Shown here piece after piece: positions 26,495 to 38,062 of a stretch of 42,602 nt of DNA. The notes below the pieces were generated by a model. The model was not told the origin of the DNA. It worked only from the letters and a program-made list of their open reading frames with translations, and searched no databases. Source of the DNA: a virus; the UHGV virus genome UHGV-0263785; one strand, written 5' to 3'. The translations under genes and the position numbers were made by a program. Numbering within the stretch: the stretch's first letter is position 1; each line of letters starts with the position of its first letter.

Positions 26495-26728
26495 ATGGGT
26501 ACGTTAGGCAACCAGCCGTGCAGAAGTCGTTATGAGTTCGATGATTTTAATTTAGCCAATCGAGCTGCGGCTCTTACTAAGTTAGCAAAAGAAACTGGTG
26601 TATCGGTGGATACCTTAATCAAACTTGAAATTGCTATGCAACTGAATCGGCTCAACTCCATCCTTATCGAAAACGGTGACAAGATGGACGAGAATCTGGC
26701 AGGTATTGGCGAGATACTGCAGAAGTGA
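26495..26728 (+). CDS. Hypothetical small protein, possible HTH (..LAKETGVSVDTLIKLE..)
   Basis: 77-aa ORF at the edge of the AT-rich island, about 400 bp upstream of the ImmA-like gene. Confidence 0.3.
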   Translation: MGTLGNQPCRSRYEFDDFNLANRAAALTKLAKETGVSVDTLIKLEIAMQLNRLNSILIENGDKMDENLAGIGEILQK

Positions 26729-27126
26729 GAGTAGCCCCTCTTCTGAGGGGTTGCACATTTAAAATATTAAGGGCGGTCTTCTTCACGTACACAGTCACCT
26801 GGTCGAATCGTTCACGCATACTGAGTACAAAAAATCTCAACGATAAGATCAGGTTAGACCTGTATTTTCCAGAAACATATAGACGCCTAAAAAAACACTA
26901 AACTCATGATTATCATGTATGTTTTTACTGGAAACATTGAACCATCCACAATACAGCGTAAAAAGCAAGCAATTCACAAGATTTTAAAGTGATTTATCTG
27001 GAAGACTTTACTACTAACAGTTAATATCGTACCAGAAGTGCAGAATTTGCACTTTTACAGGAATGTGGTACGGAACATGCTGTCTATATTTCAACCAATA
27101 ATCGTAATGCAGTAACTGGAGGAGCT

Positions 27127-27615
27127 ATGGCTACCAACCCAAGAGAGCACGCCCGGCGAGTGCTGGACACGTTCTGGTGCGGGCGTGGTTTCCCTGTTGA
27201 TCCAGCGAAAATTGCTCACGACATGGGATTAGATGTTTTTATTACCGATCTTCCTGGGAAAGTTTCTGGCGCACTGATTAAACAAAAAGATCAAGATCCA
27301 GCGATCTTTCTAAACAGTGATGACAACAAAGTTCGTCAACGTTTTTCATGTGGGCATGAGTTGGGGCATTACATCGCCCGGCAAGCATCGCATAGCGATG
27401 AATATGAGTACGTTGATTTACGTGGCGAAACCGCAAGCGCCGGAACGCATCCTGATGAAATTTTTGCAAACAAGTTCGCAGCAGAACTTCTGATGCCGGT
27501 AGATGAGGTCAGAAAACTGCACGCTGACGGTCAACCAAGTTATATAATGGCGCATTATTTTGGCGTATCTGACGATGCGATGACTTATCGTTTAAAGAAC
27601 TTGAGGTTGGGGTAA
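27127..27615 (+). CDS. ImmA/IrrE-family zinc metallopeptidase (COG2856-like)
   Basis: 162 aa; HEXXH motif (HELGHY) followed by ..DEIFANKFAAELLMP.. characteristic of ImmA/IrrE peptidases; GGAGGAG RBS before the ATG. Confidence 0.7.
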   Translation: MATNPREHARRVLDTFWCGRGFPVDPAKIAHDMGLDVFITDLPGKVSGALIKQKDQDPAIFLNSDDNKVRQRFSCGHELGHYIARQASHSDEYEYVDLRGETASAGTHPDEIFANKFAAELLMPVDEVRKLHADGQPSYIMAHYFGVSDDAMTYRLKNLRLG

Positions 27616-27624
27616 CGCTTTAAA

Positions 27625-28230
27625 ATGCCATCGGATGACGATTTTAACAGCCGTTTCAAACAGGAAGTAGCACGCAGACTGAAGGATTCCCTCAACCTAC
27701 ACCGTCAGTTAGCAGAAGAGGTTGAGCCGGAGGACGATGAAACTCCGGTTCAGTCTCCTGACGAAGCTTCACCTCAGCCAAAGGTTTCGCACGCCCCCAA
27801 AAAAACGGCTGTCCGTATTCGCGGAATAGCCAGAAAAAGAGCTGCCGAAGCTCGCAAAATGGCTGTAGCTGCGTCTAGCAAAAGAATTCCAACTGCTACA
27901 CCCTCTCAACAAGTCACCCGTACTGAGAGTAAAATCTTGACCGAGTTCACATCTGTGAAACAGGTGAATTCACTTGATACCGAGCATGAGCGCAAACAAC
28001 TCAACAACAAAGATTTTGAAGCAGAAATCGCTCTAAAAAAACGATACGGGAAATGGTTCCTGATTATCCTTGCTTTCCAACTTCTGATAATGAATGGTGT
28101 ATTTATTGCCGACGGCGCAGGTAAGCTGGAATTTGAGGATTTAACACTACAGTTGTACATGGGCGGTACTTTGACAGAGGTATTCGGCCTCGTGCTGGTC
28201 GTGACAAAATACCTTTTTAAACGCAAGTAA
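27625..28230 (+). CDS. Membrane protein with charged, low-complexity N-terminal region and two C-terminal TM helices; partner of the ImmA-like peptidase
   Basis: 201 aa; starts 9 bp after the peptidase stop; C-terminus ..WFLIILAFQLLIMNGVFIADGAG..LTEVFGLVLVVTKYLFKRK. Confidence 0.55.
   Translation: MPSDDDFNSRFKQEVARRLKDSLNLHRQLAEEVEPEDDETPVQSPDEASPQPKVSHAPKKTAVRIRGIARKRAAEARKMAVAASSKRIPTATPSQQVTRTESKILTEFTSVKQVNSLDTEHERKQLNNKDFEAEIALKKRYGKWFLIILAFQLLIMNGVFIADGAGKLEFEDLTLQLYMGGTLTEVFGLVLVVTKYLFKRK
28152..28230 (+). repeat. Direct repeat copy 1 (the last ~26 codons of the membrane-protein gene)
   Basis: About 79 bp, roughly 90% identical to 31575-31653; homology ends exactly at the stop codon. 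Confidence 0.8.
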
Positions 28231-28244
28231 CTCTCTCGGTCCAA

Positions 28245-28266
28245 CAGTCTTTCGAAGGCCCTGATC
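28245..28266 (+). terminator. Hairpin (aaggccc-tgatca-aagggcctt) 3' of the membrane-protein gene
   Basis: Inverted repeat 15 bp after the stop. Confidence 0.35.
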
Positions 28267-28692
28267 AAAGGGCCTTGATAAATTAGCAGTGCGTTGAAAA
28301 CAGATAGTTATTCCCATCAGTTCCAACGTAATACACATCAAAAAAATCACCATTCTTTTGCTCTAACGTCAACACCTACCCTTAAAAAAATAATTCTCCA
28401 AGAATGAGAAAGTTATTGTGTGTATTAGATAAGATATGAGCTGACACATCTATGGCGTGGAGCCAAATTTAATATGACAGTCCGCTCTGTGCCATAAGCG
28501 GACTGTCAATAAACAGATTCACTTGTAAATCTTGAAGCTATACATATTTACTTTCAATGATAAATAAAAGAACTATCCAAAAATCACTGAGAGCATATTT
28601 TAACTAACCCTCCGCTACTATTAACATAAATTTCACCCAACCATAATTAAATTGATACATATAGCAACTTACCTTGATACGAATCATCTGGG

Positions 28693-29391
28693 TTATATTT
28701 TTCCATATTTTTTTCCGTCAAATCGAATCATGCCAGGATCAAGAAAATTAATTAAATCGATTAACGCGTGCTGTATTCTGATTAGCCTTTCTTTATAAAT
28801 TCCGATATCTCTTGTCATATTTATCACTTCATTGTTTAAATCTAAAAAAAATGGCTCATTGATAAAGCAATTTTCCTTTGTGAAACTGCCGTAACCTATG
28901 CAATCAAATCCAGTATCTGTTGATATCAGCATCTTTTCTGCAATAGCTCTCTGCTCTCCTATGAAAAACATAAAATACTGACCAAAGACGTCTGTTTGGA
29001 TTAATGAGTTAATATTGTTCTGTAATCTAATAAACTCCCTCATTTTTTTATTTTTTTCTAGGCTAAGGTATTGAATGTCTATGCGGGCAGCTTCTGTCCA
29101 TGCAAAAAACTGGGAAAAAAGAAAAACAGTATTGTTGATAACATAATCTTGTTGGCGCTTATTCCCATTATGATAAAACTCTTCAATGAACCCCAATTCT
29201 AATATATTATAAATACGGCTTTGTAAGTCTGAAGCTGAGCGAATTAACGGTTCAATATAGTACTGATGTTTTCTCCTTACATCCAGTGATTCATTGAGCT
29301 TGTTTATTCTATTCTGATTATAAGTAGATATAGCAATAGAGATTATAGCTATTGCACCACTAATAAAGCTTGAAATTAATGCCGTACCCAT
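28693..29391 (-). CDS. Membrane-anchored hypothetical protein (N-terminal TM helix), strongly AT-rich gene
   Basis: 232 aa, ATG start; N-terminus MGTALISSFISGAIAIISIAISTY; base composition clearly lower in GC than the phage backbone. Confidence 0.5.
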   Translation of the reverse strand: MGTALISSFISGAIAIISIAISTYNQNRINKLNESLDVRRKHQYYIEPLIRSASDLQSRIYNILELGFIEEFYHNGNKRQQDYVINNTVFLFSQFFAWTEAARIDIQYLSLEKNKKMREFIRLQNNINSLIQTDVFGQYFMFFIGEQRAIAEKMLISTDTGFDCIGYGSFTKENCFINEPFFLDLNNEVINMTRDIGIYKERLIRIQHALIDLINFLDPGMIRFDGKKYGKI

Positions 29392-29963: not shown

Positions 29964-30579
29964 ATAACGGCATTGTTATCTAAACTATGTTACACAAATA
30001 TAATATTACCCTTTCAACGTAATCCAAGAATAAGATTAATGCCATTATATATATCATAAATATGATATTTTGTATATTTTTATCATTTAGCCTTGATTGT
30101 ACTAGGTGTACTCTCAACGAAGTAGGGAAAGTCTGTTCCTCGCTCACAGCTGCCCTTCAGTAAGCGAAAAAATGCCTACTCGGTGCCATATACAGCCATT
30201 GTTATTAACAGCAGGGAATAATTCAAAACTGAAATTAAATATCTACCTTTTACAGTAGAAATAGTTCCTCCAGGACACTATCCATTGCCGGGCACAATCA
30301 CTCGGGGTATAACGATATAAAATATGTTCATGATAGTGCAGGTTCGTATATTAAGTTCAGCAGCGAAAACATGCCTTACAGGTTTCCGGTTTTGGGAGCG
30401 TCGTTACAGGATCCTGCGCATACCGTTCCCATCTGTTGAATTAAAGGTTTCACAGCCTTTGCCGATATCACCTTTTACCTTACCTGTGATGCGTTCAGTG
30501 CTCAGCGTTGTTTACTGTAGCTCTCGGGACTGATTACAGACCGCGTCTTAAAAACCAATCCTTACTCTAAAGGGAATTC

Positions 30580-31503
30580 ATGAGATTAAAATACTCAGTA
30601 CTCTTACTCGCCATTGCCCTTACAGGCTGTGATAACAAAAAAGATGAGATCGGTTGTTCTTCGGAAATAACCCAGTCAGCTCTCATGGATTTATTAAAAA
30701 AATCTGCTTATGAAGGACTCTCTGAACAGGTCGATAAATACCCTGATGTCACTAATCAGACCAAACGAAGCACACTGGACAAGATCAAACTAGCCATCTC
30801 TGAGATCTCCACAACATCAAGTGACACGGGCAGCACAATGAAAACTTGTGAAGGGACCGTGACGATGACTCTATCTGCGAACGAGTACGTCCAGCTTTCA
30901 GATGCTTACAGAAAGAATTTTAATCGTAATCTCGATAAGCAAATGGAAAGCCTGTTTTTGGAGAACAACGCAAACGCCTTTTCAAAACGTATCACCTACA
31001 CCGTGCAGGCGACCGACGATCAGAAAAACGTTTTTGTAAAAACCTCTACTGATAATCCGATATCAGTGGGCGCCGCTTTACTGACATCGCTTTCCATTAT
31101 CACCCCGATCGTTGAGCAGCAGAAAATCCAGCAGGCTAAGGATGCCCAACAGAGTCAAATTGAAGCGGAACAACAGGTGCAACTCAGGGCGCAAGAACAG
31201 GCTAAGTATGAGGCGGAGAAGCAAATAGAGAGACAGGCACAACTTCAGCCGCAAAAAGCTGACAACCTTGATCAGTCCCGAATGGCATTTGCGAATGCCG
31301 ACTCTGATTTGAGTACCGTCTGGAGCAAGTTAACCCCGGCGAAGAAAAAAGATTTGCTGCCTTCTCAGCGTCAGTGGATCAAAACTAAGGATGCTATGTG
31401 CGGTAAAGTTTCAATGCAGGGAACAGATGCTGAAGTCAAGAAAATGGTCGACTGCCAGACGCAAATGACCCTTTCAAGAATCGCTTTCCTCAGAAACCAA
31501 TAA
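30580..31503 (+). CDS. Lipoprotein with central Gln/Glu-rich coiled-coil and C-terminal DUF1311 (LprI-like) domain
   Basis: 307 aa; lipobox (LLAIALTGC|D); C-terminal ..SQRQWIKTKDAMCGKVSMQGTDAEVKKMVDCQTQMTLSRIAFLRNQ fits the DUF1311 pattern (Q..W...RD..C......C....T..R...L). Confidence 0.6.
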   Translation: MRLKYSVLLLAIALTGCDNKKDEIGCSSEITQSALMDLLKKSAYEGLSEQVDKYPDVTNQTKRSTLDKIKLAISEISTTSSDTGSTMKTCEGTVTMTLSANEYVQLSDAYRKNFNRNLDKQMESLFLENNANAFSKRITYTVQATDDQKNVFVKTSTDNPISVGAALLTSLSIITPIVEQQKIQQAKDAQQSQIEAEQQVQLRAQEQAKYEAEKQIERQAQLQPQKADNLDQSRMAFANADSDLSTVWSKLTPAKKKDLLPSQRQWIKTKDAMCGKVSMQGTDAEVKKMVDCQTQMTLSRIAFLRNQ

Positions 31504-31677: not shown

Positions 31678-32496
31678 TCAAAATGCTGAATTAGCAACGG
31701 ATATAGCCGACTTTTTCCCCATTACCATCAATTTATCCAGTGTCATACTTCGCAGATTGTCGCTGTGGATCACCAGATACCCTGCCCGCTCAGCGATCTC
31801 TTTGAAAGCGTCAAAGGTCATCAGATGTTCGCCTTTGGCAACATGGCGCATCCCGGTCACTTTTCCATTTTTGATAGTGGTGATAAAAGAAAAATCTGGA
31901 ATGGTTGGGTGATTTTCATCGAGTAGCAGGCAGTGGATGTATTCAATCGCCTCTAACATTTGCGTCTGTGACAGTTGTTCTATGTGAGAGACGGCGAAGC
32001 GTTGATGAATCATGGTGTAGGCATCGGGATACATCATGCCTTTCTTGCCGACCAGTATATTAACGGCATCACGCAAGGGAGTACGGTCATCGGTAGTTGT
32101 ACTCCGCCTCTCTGGACGCTGGCTAAAATAACAATCTTCCAGCTTTTCGAAAACTTCCCAGGCCTGTTCTGTTTCCAGCATTTTGGCATGGCGAGCTGCG
32201 CCGCGTTCTGTCCAGAGAATGAGGGATCGGGTATGTTTAGCAACTGACTGACTATCTGTCAGTCTGTTTTTGAAGTCGCGTAATTCATTACCTTCCAGCT
32301 TAAAAAAATGCTTTCCTACGACAAATCTGGCGATGTTGCGCTTGAAGTTTTGCTGGATACCATTTACTTCCGTGCCATACAAACTGGCAAGCAATTCAGT
32401 AGTGATGACGGGAAGTTGGTTATGATGTAGCGGAGAAAGGGATTCCGCAGATATTTGGACTGTCATCGCAGTGGCCTCACTTAGTGTTTTTTTCAT
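31678..32496 (-). CDS. Phage antirepressor (Ant-like)
   Basis: N-terminal region resembles antirepressor N-domains and the C-terminal half KilA-C-type domains; the listed ORF starts at TTG (32514), the first ATG is at 32496. Confidence 0.55.
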   Translation of the reverse strand: MKKTLSEATAMTVQISAESLSPLHHNQLPVITTELLASLYGTEVNGIQQNFKRNIARFVVGKHFFKLEGNELRDFKNRLTDSQSVAKHTRSLILWTERGAARHAKMLETEQAWEVFEKLEDCYFSQRPERRSTTTDDRTPLRDAVNILVGKKGMMYPDAYTMIHQRFAVSHIEQLSQTQMLEAIEYIHCLLLDENHPTIPDFSFITTIKNGKVTGMRHVAKGEHLMTFDAFKEIAERAGYLVIHSDNLRSMTLDKLMVMGKKSAISVANSAF

Positions 32497-32528
32497 CACC
32501 ACCAGCGACGCCAATCATCTGGTGGTGA
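32496..32528. promoter_or_regulatory. Perfect 10-bp palindrome (tcaccaccag N13 ctggtggtga) overlapping the antirepressor RBS/start
   Basis: Read directly; the 3' arm contains the GGTGGTG Shine-Dalgarno-like sequence. Confidence 0.35.
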
Positions 32529-37552: not shown

Positions 37553-37648
37553 GGACTCCTTGTGTCCGCGTCATCATTACAAACAATAACTGTAATTACA
37601 AATTATATTTGCAATGCTCCCTACAATTAAACCTTGTATCCTTACGGT
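37553..37648. promoter_or_regulatory. Divergent promoter/operator region between cro-like and repressor genes, with repeated TTACAA/TTGTAA half-sites
   Basis: ATTACA-N9-TGTAAT, the palindrome TGTAATTACA, and TTACAA-N7-TTGCAA at 37577-37615. Confidence 0.45.
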
Positions 37649-38062
37649 ATGAACACAAAAACGAAAAACATGGCTTTTGCTAGCCGACTACAACGGATTC
37701 TAAAAGACTTAGGCTGGTCTCAATCTGAGTTAGCTCGCCATATTGGGGTTACGGCTCAATCAGTTCAGGCATGGTGTAATGGGGTAACTCCAAGAAAAGA
37801 TAAATTAGACAAGCTAGCAAAAGTGACCGGATACCCTGTTCATTTTTTCTTCATGAATGAAGGGGAATATTTGGATGAATCCACACTACACCCGGGTAAT
37901 TACAATCAAGAACTAACCCCGCAAGAACAGGCTCTACTGCAACTATTCAGAGGACTGCCTGAGAGCGAAAAAAATAAATTAATCAATGAGCTAAAAGAAA
38001 AAAGAGAGCACTTCGATCTACTGCTAAAAGAACTACTTGAAGCCAAAAACCAGACAAAATAG
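37649..38062 (+). CDS. XRE-family HTH repressor (CI-like role), no LexA/S24 peptidase domain
   Basis: N-terminal HTH (..LQRILKDLGWSQSELARHIGVTAQSVQAWCNG..), C-terminal coiled-coil; the listed ORF starts at TTG (37634), the ATG is at 37649. Confidence 0.65.
   Translation: MNTKTKNMAFASRLQRILKDLGWSQSELARHIGVTAQSVQAWCNGVTPRKDKLDKLAKVTGYPVHFFFMNEGEYLDESTLHPGNYNQELTPQEQALLQLFRGLPESEKNKLINELKEKREHFDLLLKELLEAKNQTK

What the first reader, a model, noticed from the sequence alone, without database searches (positions are those of the whole stretch)
27127..28230. ImmA/IrrE-like metallopeptidase with a 2-TM membrane partner, oriented against the early operon
A tight two-gene cassette (9-bp gap) on the plus strand sits inside an otherwise minus-strand early region. 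Gene 1 has HEXXH (HELGHY) and the ImmA/IrrE fold signature. Gene 2 is a 201-aa protein with a long charged, low-complexity N-terminal region and two C-terminal transmembrane helices. ImmA-type proteases usually pair with an XRE repressor they cleave; here the partner is a membrane protein instead. The prophage repressor (37649-38062) lacks a self-cleavage domain, so one hypothesis is a remote ImmA-type induction protease. The other is a protease-controlled membrane effector acting in abortive infection or superinfection exclusion. I do not recognise this pairing as a described system.
Basis: partly seen in the sequence, partly recalled or inferred. Interest (0 to 1): 0.7.

Follow-up and report, generated by a model that had tools for sequence, protein, structure and literature searches.

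The report
Prophage RosmerTA-type peptidase/membrane-toxin defence pair
This two-gene cassette in an E. coli ST131 prophage is related, in both genes, to a toxin-antitoxin phage-defence pair from Gordonia phage Kita that was tested experimentally in 2023 (a zinc peptidase plus a membrane-depolarising toxin), so it is a new member of a known kind that current annotation tools miss.

Summary
Two plus-strand genes lie 9 nt apart. The first (27127-27615) encodes a 162-aa M78/ImmA-IrrE zinc peptidase with HELGH. The second (27625-28230) encodes a 201-aa protein with an N-terminal helix, a disordered linker and two C-terminal membrane helices.

The peptidase is 44% identical to Gordonia phage Kita gp32 (RmrA_D25). 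The membrane protein matches Kita gp33 (RmrT_D5) by profile (hhalign 94.9%). Ernits et al. 2023 showed that the Kita pair is a RosmerTA toxin-antitoxin system, that its toxin depolarises the membrane, and that it defends E. coli against phages.

The membrane-protein family is large (690 clusters at 50% identity). In about 28 loci checked, from Gammaproteobacteria to a Rhodococcus MAG, a stand-alone M78 peptidase sits immediately upstream. No helix-turn-helix partner or other third gene is conserved.

The "remote prophage-induction protease" idea is not supported. The pair occurs with a self-cleaving CI repressor, in a decayed island and outside prophages.

The best reading is a prophage-carried abortive-infection and addiction module. 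How the peptidase controls the toxin is unknown. Verdict: new member of a known kind, modest interest.

The parts
27127..27615 (+). Stand-alone M78 (ImmA/IrrE/CapP-like) zinc metallopeptidase, 162 aa. It is a homologue of the RosmerTA antitoxin RmrA_D25 and has no HTH domain and no C-terminal GAF-like domain.
   Evidence: Pfam PF06114 E 7.7e-18. PADLOC capP 2.4e-25, then 14 RmrA models. 44% identical to Kita gp32 over 93% of its length, E 5e-31. AF2 pLDDT 89, with Foldseek matches to CapP 7t5t at 1.1e-7 and to IrrE/PprI.
27355..27369 (+). HELGH zinc-binding and catalytic motif (H77 E78 H81). The likely third ligand, E111, is at 27457-27459.
   Evidence: H77, E78, H81, E111 and the block A114 N115 F117 ... 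L121 L122 M123 P124 are invariant in 40 homologues down to 44% identity.
27616..27624 (+). 9-nt intergenic spacer. The two genes are probably translationally coupled.
   Evidence: Gaps of -1 to +11 nt in the first 10 loci and about -14 to +15 nt in 19 more.
27625..28230 (+). 201-aa two-TM membrane protein, a homologue of the membrane-depolarising RosmerTA toxin RmrT_D5.
   Evidence: No hit in Pfam, PADLOC or NCBIfam; matches phrog_5346. Kita gp33 matches the family profile at 31.8 bits, E 5.6e-11, and hhalign gives 94.9%, E 4.8e-8 over 75 columns.
27634..27720 (+). N-terminal cytoplasmic helix (residues 4-32). It is conserved in the Enterobacterales subfamily only.
   Evidence: AF2 helix with pLDDT about 75-87. 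L19, L23 and R27 are invariant in alignment A1. It is absent from the short family members of 107-125 aa.
27721..27978 (+). Disordered low-complexity linker (residues 33-118), which varies widely in length between relatives.
   Evidence: AF2 pLDDT below 50. Protein lengths in the family run from 130 to 239 aa, and the variation maps here.
27979..28116 (+). Juxtamembrane helix (LKKxY motif) running into TM1. TM1 is residues 144-162, at 28054-28110.
   Evidence: AF2 helix 119-164. Kyte-Doolittle peak of 2.26. Y141 and G164 are invariant across alignment A3.
28138..28221 (+). TM2 helix (residues 172-199) with the core motif LYMGGTLTEVFGLVLVVTKYLF. The invariant intramembrane glutamate E185 is at 28177-28179.
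   Evidence: E185, L197 and F198 are invariant in 28 diverse members. AF2 helix 172-199.
28255..28275 (+). 8-bp GC-rich hairpin just after the stop codon. It is a weak terminator candidate with no T-run.
   Evidence: MFE -15.5 kcal/mol, but z-score only -0.79 against shuffles. The terminator scan did not call it.

Best explanation
The cassette is a RosmerTA-type toxin-antitoxin and abortive-infection module of the RmrA_D25/RmrT_D5 kind, carried as autonomous cargo by the prophage.

**Proposed mechanism.**
- Gene 2 inserts in the inner membrane as a helical hairpin with both ends in the cytoplasm. When it is uncontrolled it oligomerises, forms pores and collapses the membrane potential. The invariant Glu185 in TM2 and the polar Q/N residues in TM1 fit this role.
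- Gene 1, a cytoplasmic stand-alone M78 zinc peptidase made from the same, probably translationally coupled, message, keeps the toxin in check. It most likely acts on the toxin's cytoplasmic N-terminal or juxtamembrane segment.
- Infection by particular phages breaks this control. The cell depolarises and the infection aborts. This protects the lysogen population and also stabilises the prophage.

**What is shown and what is inferred.**
- Shown here: homology of both genes to the Kita pair, strict synteny, conservation of the catalytic site, and autonomy of the two-gene unit.
- Shown in the literature for the Kita homologue: toxicity, partial neutralisation by the peptidase, depolarisation and pore formation, and defence against Bas54 and Bas59.
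- Inferred: that the E. coli pair behaves the same way, that proteolysis is the means of control, and what the trigger is.
For: **Homology to the Kita pair.**
- Gene 1 is 44% identical to Kita gp32. The two proteins have the same PADLOC profile pattern.
- Kita gp33 matches the gene-2 family profile and hhalign gives 94.9%.
- A Rhodococcus MAG member (L038) bridges the proteobacterial and Kita toxins.
- Kita gp32 and gp33 are YP_009301393.1 and YP_009301394.1, that is RmrA_D25 and RmrT_D5.

**Published function of the Kita pair.** PMC10440598 reports toxicity, neutralisation, membrane depolarisation and anti-phage defence.

**Synteny and autonomy.**
- The pair is adjacent and on the same strand in every locus examined: 10 loci, and 19 of 19.
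- No third gene is conserved within 2 kb.
- The identities of the two proteins co-vary (r = 0.94).

**Active site.** The catalytic residues are invariant.

**Genomic context typical of defence and TA cargo.**
- Locations include next to the integrase and att site, the nin region beside ParDE and hok, and after Q.
- The pair persists in a decayed Salmonella island.
- Its neighbours are swapped in E. coli S42 while the pair stays intact.

**Related RosmerTA systems.** rmrA is essential in Pectobacteriaceae Tn-seq.
Against: - No experiment exists on the E. coli pair.
- The toxin-to-Kita link is profile-level only (24% identity), although synteny supports it.
- PADLOC RmrT models do not hit gene 2, and canonical RmrA proteins carry an N-terminal HTH that is absent here.
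- In Kita the toxin was not fully neutralised, and AlphaFold could not predict a complex.
- One assembly (L046) has the peptidase frameshifted at a T5 run while the toxin gene is intact. The same frameshift product is recorded on other contigs. If this is real, the peptidase is not strictly essential at native expression.
- No convincing promoter was found.
Confidence: 0.75

Rival explanations
1. Proteolytic switch. The peptidase is not an antitoxin but a sensor and activator. The membrane protein is held inactive by its own cytoplasmic N-terminal region (helix plus disordered linker). On infection or DNA damage the peptidase is activated, as CapP and IrrE are by ssDNA or zinc, and cuts this region off. 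That releases an active pore.
For: - The best sequence and structure matches are CapP and IrrE/PprI, which are signal-activated site-specific proteases.
- The long, protease-accessible disordered linker and the conserved N-terminal helix are found in the enterobacterial subfamily.
- A peptidase frameshift is tolerated with the toxin intact in L046.
Against: - In the Kita homologue the toxin alone is toxic and the peptidase reduces toxicity.
- Many family members (107-125 aa) have almost no N-terminal region to remove.
- The peptidase lacks the C-terminal GAF-like sensor domain of CapP and IrrE; the match covers only positions 3-151 of 242 profile positions, and TM-score normalised to the target is 0.40.
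Confidence: 0.15
2. Phage life-cycle function. The two-TM protein is a holin-, antiholin- or superinfection-exclusion-type membrane protein of the prophage, and the peptidase tunes its level. On this reading the pair does not act as heterotypic defence.
For: - It is a small two-TM protein with charged cytoplasmic ends, like class II holins.
- In Serratia the pair lies between the antiterminator Q and the holin genes.
Against: - The position varies: next to integrase, in the nin region, after Q, and outside phages.
- The window prophage has its own holin and endolysin cassette at about 22.4-23.6 kb.
- The pair is retained in a decayed island without lysis genes.
- The Kita homologue gave defence when cloned alone in E. 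coli.
Confidence: 0.07
3. Remote ImmA-type anti-repressor. The peptidase cleaves the prophage's HTH-only CI-like repressor (37634-38062) to induce the prophage, and the membrane protein is an accessory.
For: - The repressor has no Peptidase_S24 domain.
- ImmA, IrrE and CapP all cleave XRE-family repressors.
Against: - The peptidase is about 10 kb from the repressor, whereas ImmA, CapP and IrrE systems have adjacent or dedicated HTH partners.
- The same pair occurs in a prophage whose CI has an S24 domain (L014), in a prophage remnant and outside prophages.
- The pair is linked to the membrane protein in every locus and never to an HTH gene.
- The prophage carries an ORF6N-domain protein (31678-32514) that could serve as a conventional anti-repressor.
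Confidence: 0.03

Closest known systems
RosmerTA of Gordonia phage Kita (RmrA_D25 YP_009301393.1 / RmrT_D5 YP_009301394.1; Ernits et al. 2023, PMC10440598)
   Same: - Both are phage- or prophage-encoded two-gene operons with the peptidase first and the genes abutting or overlapping.
- Both have a stand-alone M78 peptidase without an HTH (44% identity).
- In both, the downstream small protein has a C-terminal two-TM core with the same conserved Glu and a terminal LF(K) motif.
   Different: - The E. coli toxin is 201 aa against 119 aa, with an added N-terminal helix and an ~85-residue disordered linker.
- Toxin similarity is detectable only by profile.
- The hosts are Gammaproteobacteria and Actinobacteria.
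- The E. coli pair is untested.
Canonical RosmerTA (Millman et al. 2022; PADLOC and DefenseFinder RmrA/RmrT)
   Same: A zinc-peptidase (COG2856/M78) antitoxin is paired with a toxin of no known domain, and the system is a TA-type phage defence.
   Different: - Canonical RmrA proteins are about 360-400 aa: an XRE HTH, the M78 domain and a C-terminal region. Gene 1 aligns only to positions ~150-290 of those profiles.
- No PADLOC RmrT model hits gene 2 or Kita RmrT_D5.
CapH/CapP regulators of CBASS (Lau et al. 2022; PDB 7t5t)
   Same: CapP is the best sequence and structure match for the peptidase domain.
   Different: There is no C-terminal GAF-like domain, no adjacent CapH-type HTH substrate, and no CBASS or other regulated operon nearby.
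ImmA/ImmR (ICEBs1) and IrrE/DdrO
   Same: The M78 fold with HExxH and a downstream Glu is shared.
   Different: These proteases cleave a dedicated XRE repressor to induce an element or regulon. No HTH partner is conserved here, and the obligate partner is a membrane protein.
Lambda RexAB and Sbash gp30/31 (cytoplasmic sensor plus membrane channel, abortive infection)
   Same: The logic is analogous: a prophage-expressed cytoplasmic protein controls a membrane-depolarising partner.
   Different: There is no homology. RexA and Sbash gp30 carry DUF4747, and RexB and gp31 have four TM helices.

Membership tests
RosmerTA, D25/D5 type (Kita RmrA_D25/RmrT_D5) | The first gene is an M78/ImmA-type zinc peptidase homologous to RmrA_D25. 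| tested here: met
   tblastn finds 44% identity over 93% of the length, E 5e-31. A profile of the peptidase clade hits Kita gp32 at 1.2e-48.
RosmerTA, D25/D5 type (Kita RmrA_D25/RmrT_D5) | The adjacent gene is homologous to the membrane toxin RmrT_D5. | tested here: met
   Family HMM against Kita gp33: 31.8 bits, E 5.6e-11. hhalign gives 94.9% probability, E 4.8e-8, across the whole two-TM core. Identity is only 24%, so this rests on the profile plus synteny.
RosmerTA, D25/D5 type (Kita RmrA_D25/RmrT_D5) | The system is a conserved bicistronic two-gene unit. | tested here: met
   The genes are adjacent and on the same strand in all ~28 loci. No conserved third gene was found.
RosmerTA, D25/D5 type (Kita RmrA_D25/RmrT_D5) | The toxin is toxic and depolarises the membrane, and the peptidase neutralises it. 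| not testable with these tools
   Shown only for the Kita pair. A natural peptidase frameshift with an intact toxin (L046) leaves essentiality of the peptidase open.
RosmerTA, D25/D5 type (Kita RmrA_D25/RmrT_D5) | The system confers anti-phage defence. | not testable with these tools
   Shown for Kita against Bas54 and Bas59. Not tested for the E. coli pair.
Canonical RosmerTA (PADLOC RmrA + RmrT) | RmrA carries an N-terminal XRE HTH fused to the peptidase. | tested here: not met
   Gene 1 is 162 aa with only PF06114. It aligns to about positions 150-290 of RmrA profiles that are 357-400 positions long. No HTH was found in five other family peptidases.
Canonical RosmerTA (PADLOC RmrA + RmrT) | The toxin matches a catalogued RmrT model. 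| tested here: not met
   No PADLOC hit for gene 2 at E <= 1 apart from a chance JetC match. The validated Kita RmrT_D5 also has no hit.
ImmA/ImmR-type induction module | The protease is encoded next to the XRE-family repressor that it cleaves. | tested here: not met
   No HTH gene is conserved within 2 kb in 28 loci. The 77-aa HTH-like ORF at 26495-26728 is absent from the other loci and is replaced in strain S42.
CapH/CapP | The M78 domain is joined to a C-terminal GAF-like domain, with an adjacent CapH and a regulated defence operon. | tested here: not met
   The match covers only positions 3-151 of 242 in the capP profile. TM-score normalised to the target is 0.40. The neighbourhood has no CapH or CBASS genes.
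Peptidase family M78 (Pfam PF06114) | The protein has the HExxH motif, a downstream Glu ligand and the M78 fold. | tested here: met
   64.9 bits against a 22-bit cut-off. H77, E78, H81 and E111 are invariant. The AF2 model matches CapP, IrrE and PprI.

The most novel reading that the evidence does not exclude
The peptidase controls the pore by cutting it. On this reading a stand-alone M78 protease acts directly on the cytoplasmic tail of a membrane toxin, either destroying it continuously as an enzyme-antitoxin or releasing it on a phage cue. The N-terminal helix and disordered linker specific to Enterobacterales would serve as a tethered substrate or pro-domain. That would be a proteolysis-gated toxin-antitoxin mechanism not yet demonstrated for any RosmerTA system. 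It would apply to a family of at least 690 protein clusters that Pfam and PADLOC do not cover.
Probability: 0.25. Interest if true: 0.55.

Novelty: new member of a known kind. Interest (0 to 1): 0.3.

Why it matters
**Annotation gap.**
- The cassette sits in a prophage found in about 400 of 5,426 complete E. coli genomes, including the pandemic ST131 lineage.
- RefSeq labels it only "ImmA/IrrE peptidase + hypothetical protein".
- The PADLOC models do not detect its toxin.
- Recognising it as a RosmerTA D25/D5-type module fills that gap and points to a probable phage-resistance determinant relevant to phage therapy against ST131.

**Breadth of the family.** The Kita-type pair turns out to be one member of a large, strictly syntenic family spanning several phyla.

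**Open mechanism.** How an HTH-less M78 peptidase controls a two-TM toxin is unknown. The E. coli pair is a convenient native-host model for that question.

Tried and rejected
1. **The 77-aa ORF at 26495-26728 as the missing XRE partner.** It has an HTH-looking motif (MerR E 0.13). I rejected it because it is absent upstream of the pair in every other locus and is replaced in strain S42.
2. **Sbash gp30/31 or CarolAnn gp43/44 as homologues, via Che9c.** I rejected this because those systems are RexAB-like with DUF4747. Che9c gp32 is a related M78 peptidase, but its partner gp33 does not match the gene-2 profile.
3. **PD-lambda-2 of Vassallo et al. 2022.** It has a different architecture: HigB, an Xre-peptidase fusion and a P4 antitoxin.
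4. **A conserved promoter, operator or RNA structure upstream.** The upstream DNA is conserved only with one Salmonella locus. The promoter scan found no more sites than shuffled sequence gives. The folds are not consistently better than shuffles.
5. **A broad alignment (A3) for the locus search.** It was too divergent, so I narrowed it to A4.
6. **tblastn of gene 2 against phage genomes.** It found nothing, and the Kita link needed profiles.
7. **A search for the RefSeq accessions in the literature.** It found nothing.
8. **A truncated peptidase in S. Kentucky CP069813.** That assembly is riddled with frameshifts, so it is uninformative.
Full report
**Observation.** The window is a prophage of E. 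coli ST131-type strains. It is 100% identical to JJ1887 and many others, and the queried 3.2-kb stretch around the cassette is present in 457 of 5,426 complete genomes. The prophage has lambdoid regulation (a CI-like HTH, Cro-like and YdaT proteins, a replicative helicase and Q) and a contractile tail.

They are 27127-27615 (162 aa) and 27625-28230 (201 aa), both on the plus strand and 9 nt apart.

Gene 1 contains HELGH. It scores 64.9 bits on Pfam Peptidase_M78 against a cut-off of 22. Its AF2 model (pLDDT 89) best matches CapP 7t5t (E 1.1e-7) and IrrE/PprI.

Gene 2 has no hit in Pfam, NCBIfam or PADLOC.
- AF2 and hydropathy give a helix at residues 4-32, a disordered stretch at 33-118, and a helical hairpin with TM1 at 144-162 and TM2 at about 175-193.
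- Positive charges flank both cytoplasmic ends.

The one correction is that the surrounding 26.3-31.6 kb is a mixed-orientation cargo hotspot rather than a uniform minus-strand operon.

**Is the pairing real?** Yes, and strikingly so. A word-index search found 48 clusters of gene-2 homologues, all in Enterobacterales. In every neighbourhood retrieved, a 162-aa M78 peptidase lies immediately upstream. This held in Serratia, Salmonella, E. coli, Klebsiella, Cronobacter and Plesiomonas.

Peptidase homologues at 47-62% identity, all ~160-170 aa stand-alone M78 proteins, are followed by shorter proteins. Examples are Pectobacterium, Pseudoalteromonas and a second Salmonella type, with partners of 107-125 aa. 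These partners share the same two-TM core.

An exhaustive profile search found 690 clusters (50% identity) at E <= 1e-3 and 184 at E <= 1e-10. The shared core is LKKxY, then ILxxQLxxMN, then LYxGGTLxEVFGxVLVxTxYLF, with an invariant intramembrane Glu (E185).

A scan of one genome per species returned 19 loci. They came from Gamma-, Beta- and Deltaproteobacteria, a Nitrospirae MAG and a Rhodococcus MAG. All 19 had the M78 gene directly upstream on the same strand. None of those checked carried an HTH.

An all-against-all comparison of ORFs within 2 kb of the pair in 28 loci found no conserved third gene. Only an integrase was shared, by three loci of the same tRNA-Ser-associated prophage type.

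The 77-aa HTH-looking ORF upstream in the window is not part of the unit. The catalytic residues H77, E78, H81 and E111 are invariant, so enzymatic activity is under selection.

**What it is.** A tblastn search of gene 1 against phage genomes gave Gordonia phage Kita gp32 as the best non-self hit, at 44% identity and E 5e-31.
- Kita gp32 (178 aa, no HTH) overlaps gp33 (119 aa).
- Kita gp33 matches the gene-2 family HMM at 31.8 bits and E 5.6e-11.
- hhalign gives 94.9% probability over the whole two-TM core, aligning the invariant Glu and the terminal LFK.
- The Rhodococcus member L038 is an evident intermediate.

The supplementary tables of Ernits et al. 2023 (PMC10440598) identify these two proteins as RmrA_D25 (YP_009301393.1) and RmrT_D5 (YP_009301394.1). 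[quoted passage not shown]
- The toxin has a C-terminal membrane region.
- It abolishes translation, transcription and replication at once.
- It depolarises and permeabilises E. coli membranes.
- The peptidase neutralises it only partly.
- The operon protects E. coli against Bas54 and Bas59.

RosmerTA itself, a zinc-peptidase antitoxin with a toxin of unknown function, was defined by Millman et al. 2022.

**How it most likely works.** The membrane protein is the effector. It is a two-TM hairpin with polar or charged intramembrane residues (Q152, N157, T182, E185). It is predicted to oligomerise into a pore and collapse the membrane potential.

The cytoplasmic peptidase is probably co-translated from the same message and restrains it. 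Infection by certain phages relieves the restraint, and the infected cell dies or arrests before releasing phage.

Homology, synteny, active-site conservation and autonomy of the unit are shown here. Toxicity, depolarisation, neutralisation and defence are shown only for Kita. The behaviour of the E. coli pair, the role of proteolysis and the trigger are inferred.

The genomic contexts fit defence or addiction cargo:
- between the att site (tRNA-Ser) and int in E. coli and Klebsiella;
- in the nin region beside ParDE and hok in Cronobacter;
- after Q in Serratia;
- surviving next to an integrase fragment at the Salmonella SPI-5 border;
- beside an IS element outside any prophage in Pseudoalteromonas.

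In E. coli S42 both neighbours of the pair are swapped while the pair stays intact.

**Rivals.**
- *Proteolytic activation rather than neutralisation* stays plausible (about 0.15). The nearest relatives, CapP and IrrE, are signal-activated proteases. The enterobacterial toxins carry a long disordered cytoplasmic tail. One assembly has the peptidase frameshifted (T5 to T4 at 27342-27346) with an intact toxin. The same frameshift product is recorded on several other contigs. Against this, Kita's toxin is toxic alone, and many family members have almost no N-terminal tail.
- *A lysis or exclusion role* (about 0.07) does not fit the variable and non-phage contexts.
- *The remote ImmA-type induction protease* (about 0.03) is contradicted in three ways. 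The pair occurs in a prophage with an S24-type CI. It occurs in remnants and non-phage loci. It is invariably linked to the membrane protein and never to an HTH gene.

**Comparison and membership.** The pair passes the sequence-testable criteria for the Kita D25/D5 type of RosmerTA. It fails two features of canonical RosmerTA as catalogued in PADLOC: the HTH fusion in RmrA, and a match to an RmrT model. The validated Kita pair fails those same two features. It is not a CapH/CapP or ImmA/ImmR module, because it lacks the GAF-like domain, an HTH substrate and a regulated operon. It resembles RexAB and Sbash gp30/31 in logic only.

**Novelty and score.** This is a new member of a known kind. The added value has three parts:
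- an annotation gap is closed for a widespread ST131 prophage;
- the Kita-type pair is shown to represent a very large, strictly syntenic, multi-phylum family missing from Pfam and PADLOC;
- the enterobacterial toxins carry an extra N-terminal helix and a variable disordered linker.

The control mechanism is still unknown, and that is the main reason to study the pair. Interest is 0.3.

**In passing.**
- A type I-E CRISPR array in E. coli JX21CE8 carries two adjacent spacers that match gene 1 (27335-27366) and gene 2 (28181-28212) perfectly. Both have proper PAMs (ATG and AAG) on the same strand. This suggests primed acquisition from an element carrying this cassette.
- Other strains carry a spacer near 30572-30615.

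Noticed in passing
window 27335-27366 and 28181-28212; L044 (E. coli JX21CE8, NZ_CP178438.1, about 2025068-2025160): A type I-E CRISPR array in another E. coli strain has two adjacent spacers that match the peptidase gene and the toxin gene perfectly. Both protospacers are on the minus strand with functional PAMs (ATG and AAG). This looks like primed acquisition from an element carrying this cassette.
   Followed up: partly
window about 30572-30615 (start of the LprI-family gene 30580-31503): CRISPR arrays of several E. coli strains (NMBU-W10C18, 5283, isolateA, E28) hold a spacer about 93% identical to this site.
   Followed up: no
window 28693-29391 (-): This 232-aa protein has an N-terminal TM segment. 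It is 90.6% identical at the DNA level to the "putative lysogenic protein" in the cargo hotspot of phage P2-EC58, and it has a weak PADLOC hit to RTasTM/DRT at 1.8e-5. In strain S42 it is replaced by a hypothetical gene plus a GIY-YIG nuclease. It may be a separate defence or cargo gene.
   Followed up: partly
window 26495-26728 (+): This 77-aa ORF (phrog_5550) has an HTH-like motif (MerR E 0.13). It is not conserved with the cassette and is replaced in strain S42. Its function is unknown.
   Followed up: partly
window 27342-27346 (T5), 27799-27805 (A7), 28035-28041 (A7); L046: Homopolymer frameshift variants exist in public assemblies. T5 to T4 truncates the peptidase at HELGH while the toxin stays intact (L046; the same product is recorded on several contigs). 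Frameshifts at the two A7 runs truncate the toxin before TM1 (P0002, P0313-P0316). It was not resolved whether these are real mutations, phase variation or sequencing errors.
   Followed up: partly
L040 (Che9c gp32/gp33), L041 (P2-like phage NC_070905 gp41/gp42): Related stand-alone M78 peptidases (45% and 37% identity) are followed by different small membrane proteins that do not match the gene-2 profile. This looks like partner swapping within the ImmA-antitoxin network. The P2 copy sits in a P2 cargo hotspot.
   Followed up: partly
L042 (E. coli AVS0193) and four other listed genomes; corresponds to window about 28232-28692: An IS1 element is inserted between the toxin stop codon and the 232-aa gene in some strains. 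The cassette itself is left intact.
   Followed up: yes
window 27015-27126 and L003 5395-5502: About 170 bp upstream of the peptidase is conserved only between the window and one Salmonella locus. It includes a GTACCA...TGGTAC inverted repeat around an inner hairpin. Folding is better than shuffles in the window (z -2.1) but not in Salmonella.
   Followed up: partly
L003/L004 (Salmonella enterica): The pair lies between yccA (Bax1-I) with its upstream region and an integrase fragment, directly beside pipA, pipB2 and sopB (SPI-5). That is, it sits at the edge of a pathogenicity island where a prophage seems to have decayed.
   Followed up: no
window 30580-31503 (+) and 31678-32514 (-): Two more cargo genes lie in the same hotspot. 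One is an LprI-family (lysozyme-inhibitor-like) lipoprotein with a Q/E-rich coiled segment. The other is an ORF6N-domain protein, a possible anti-repressor for the HTH-only CI.
   Followed up: no
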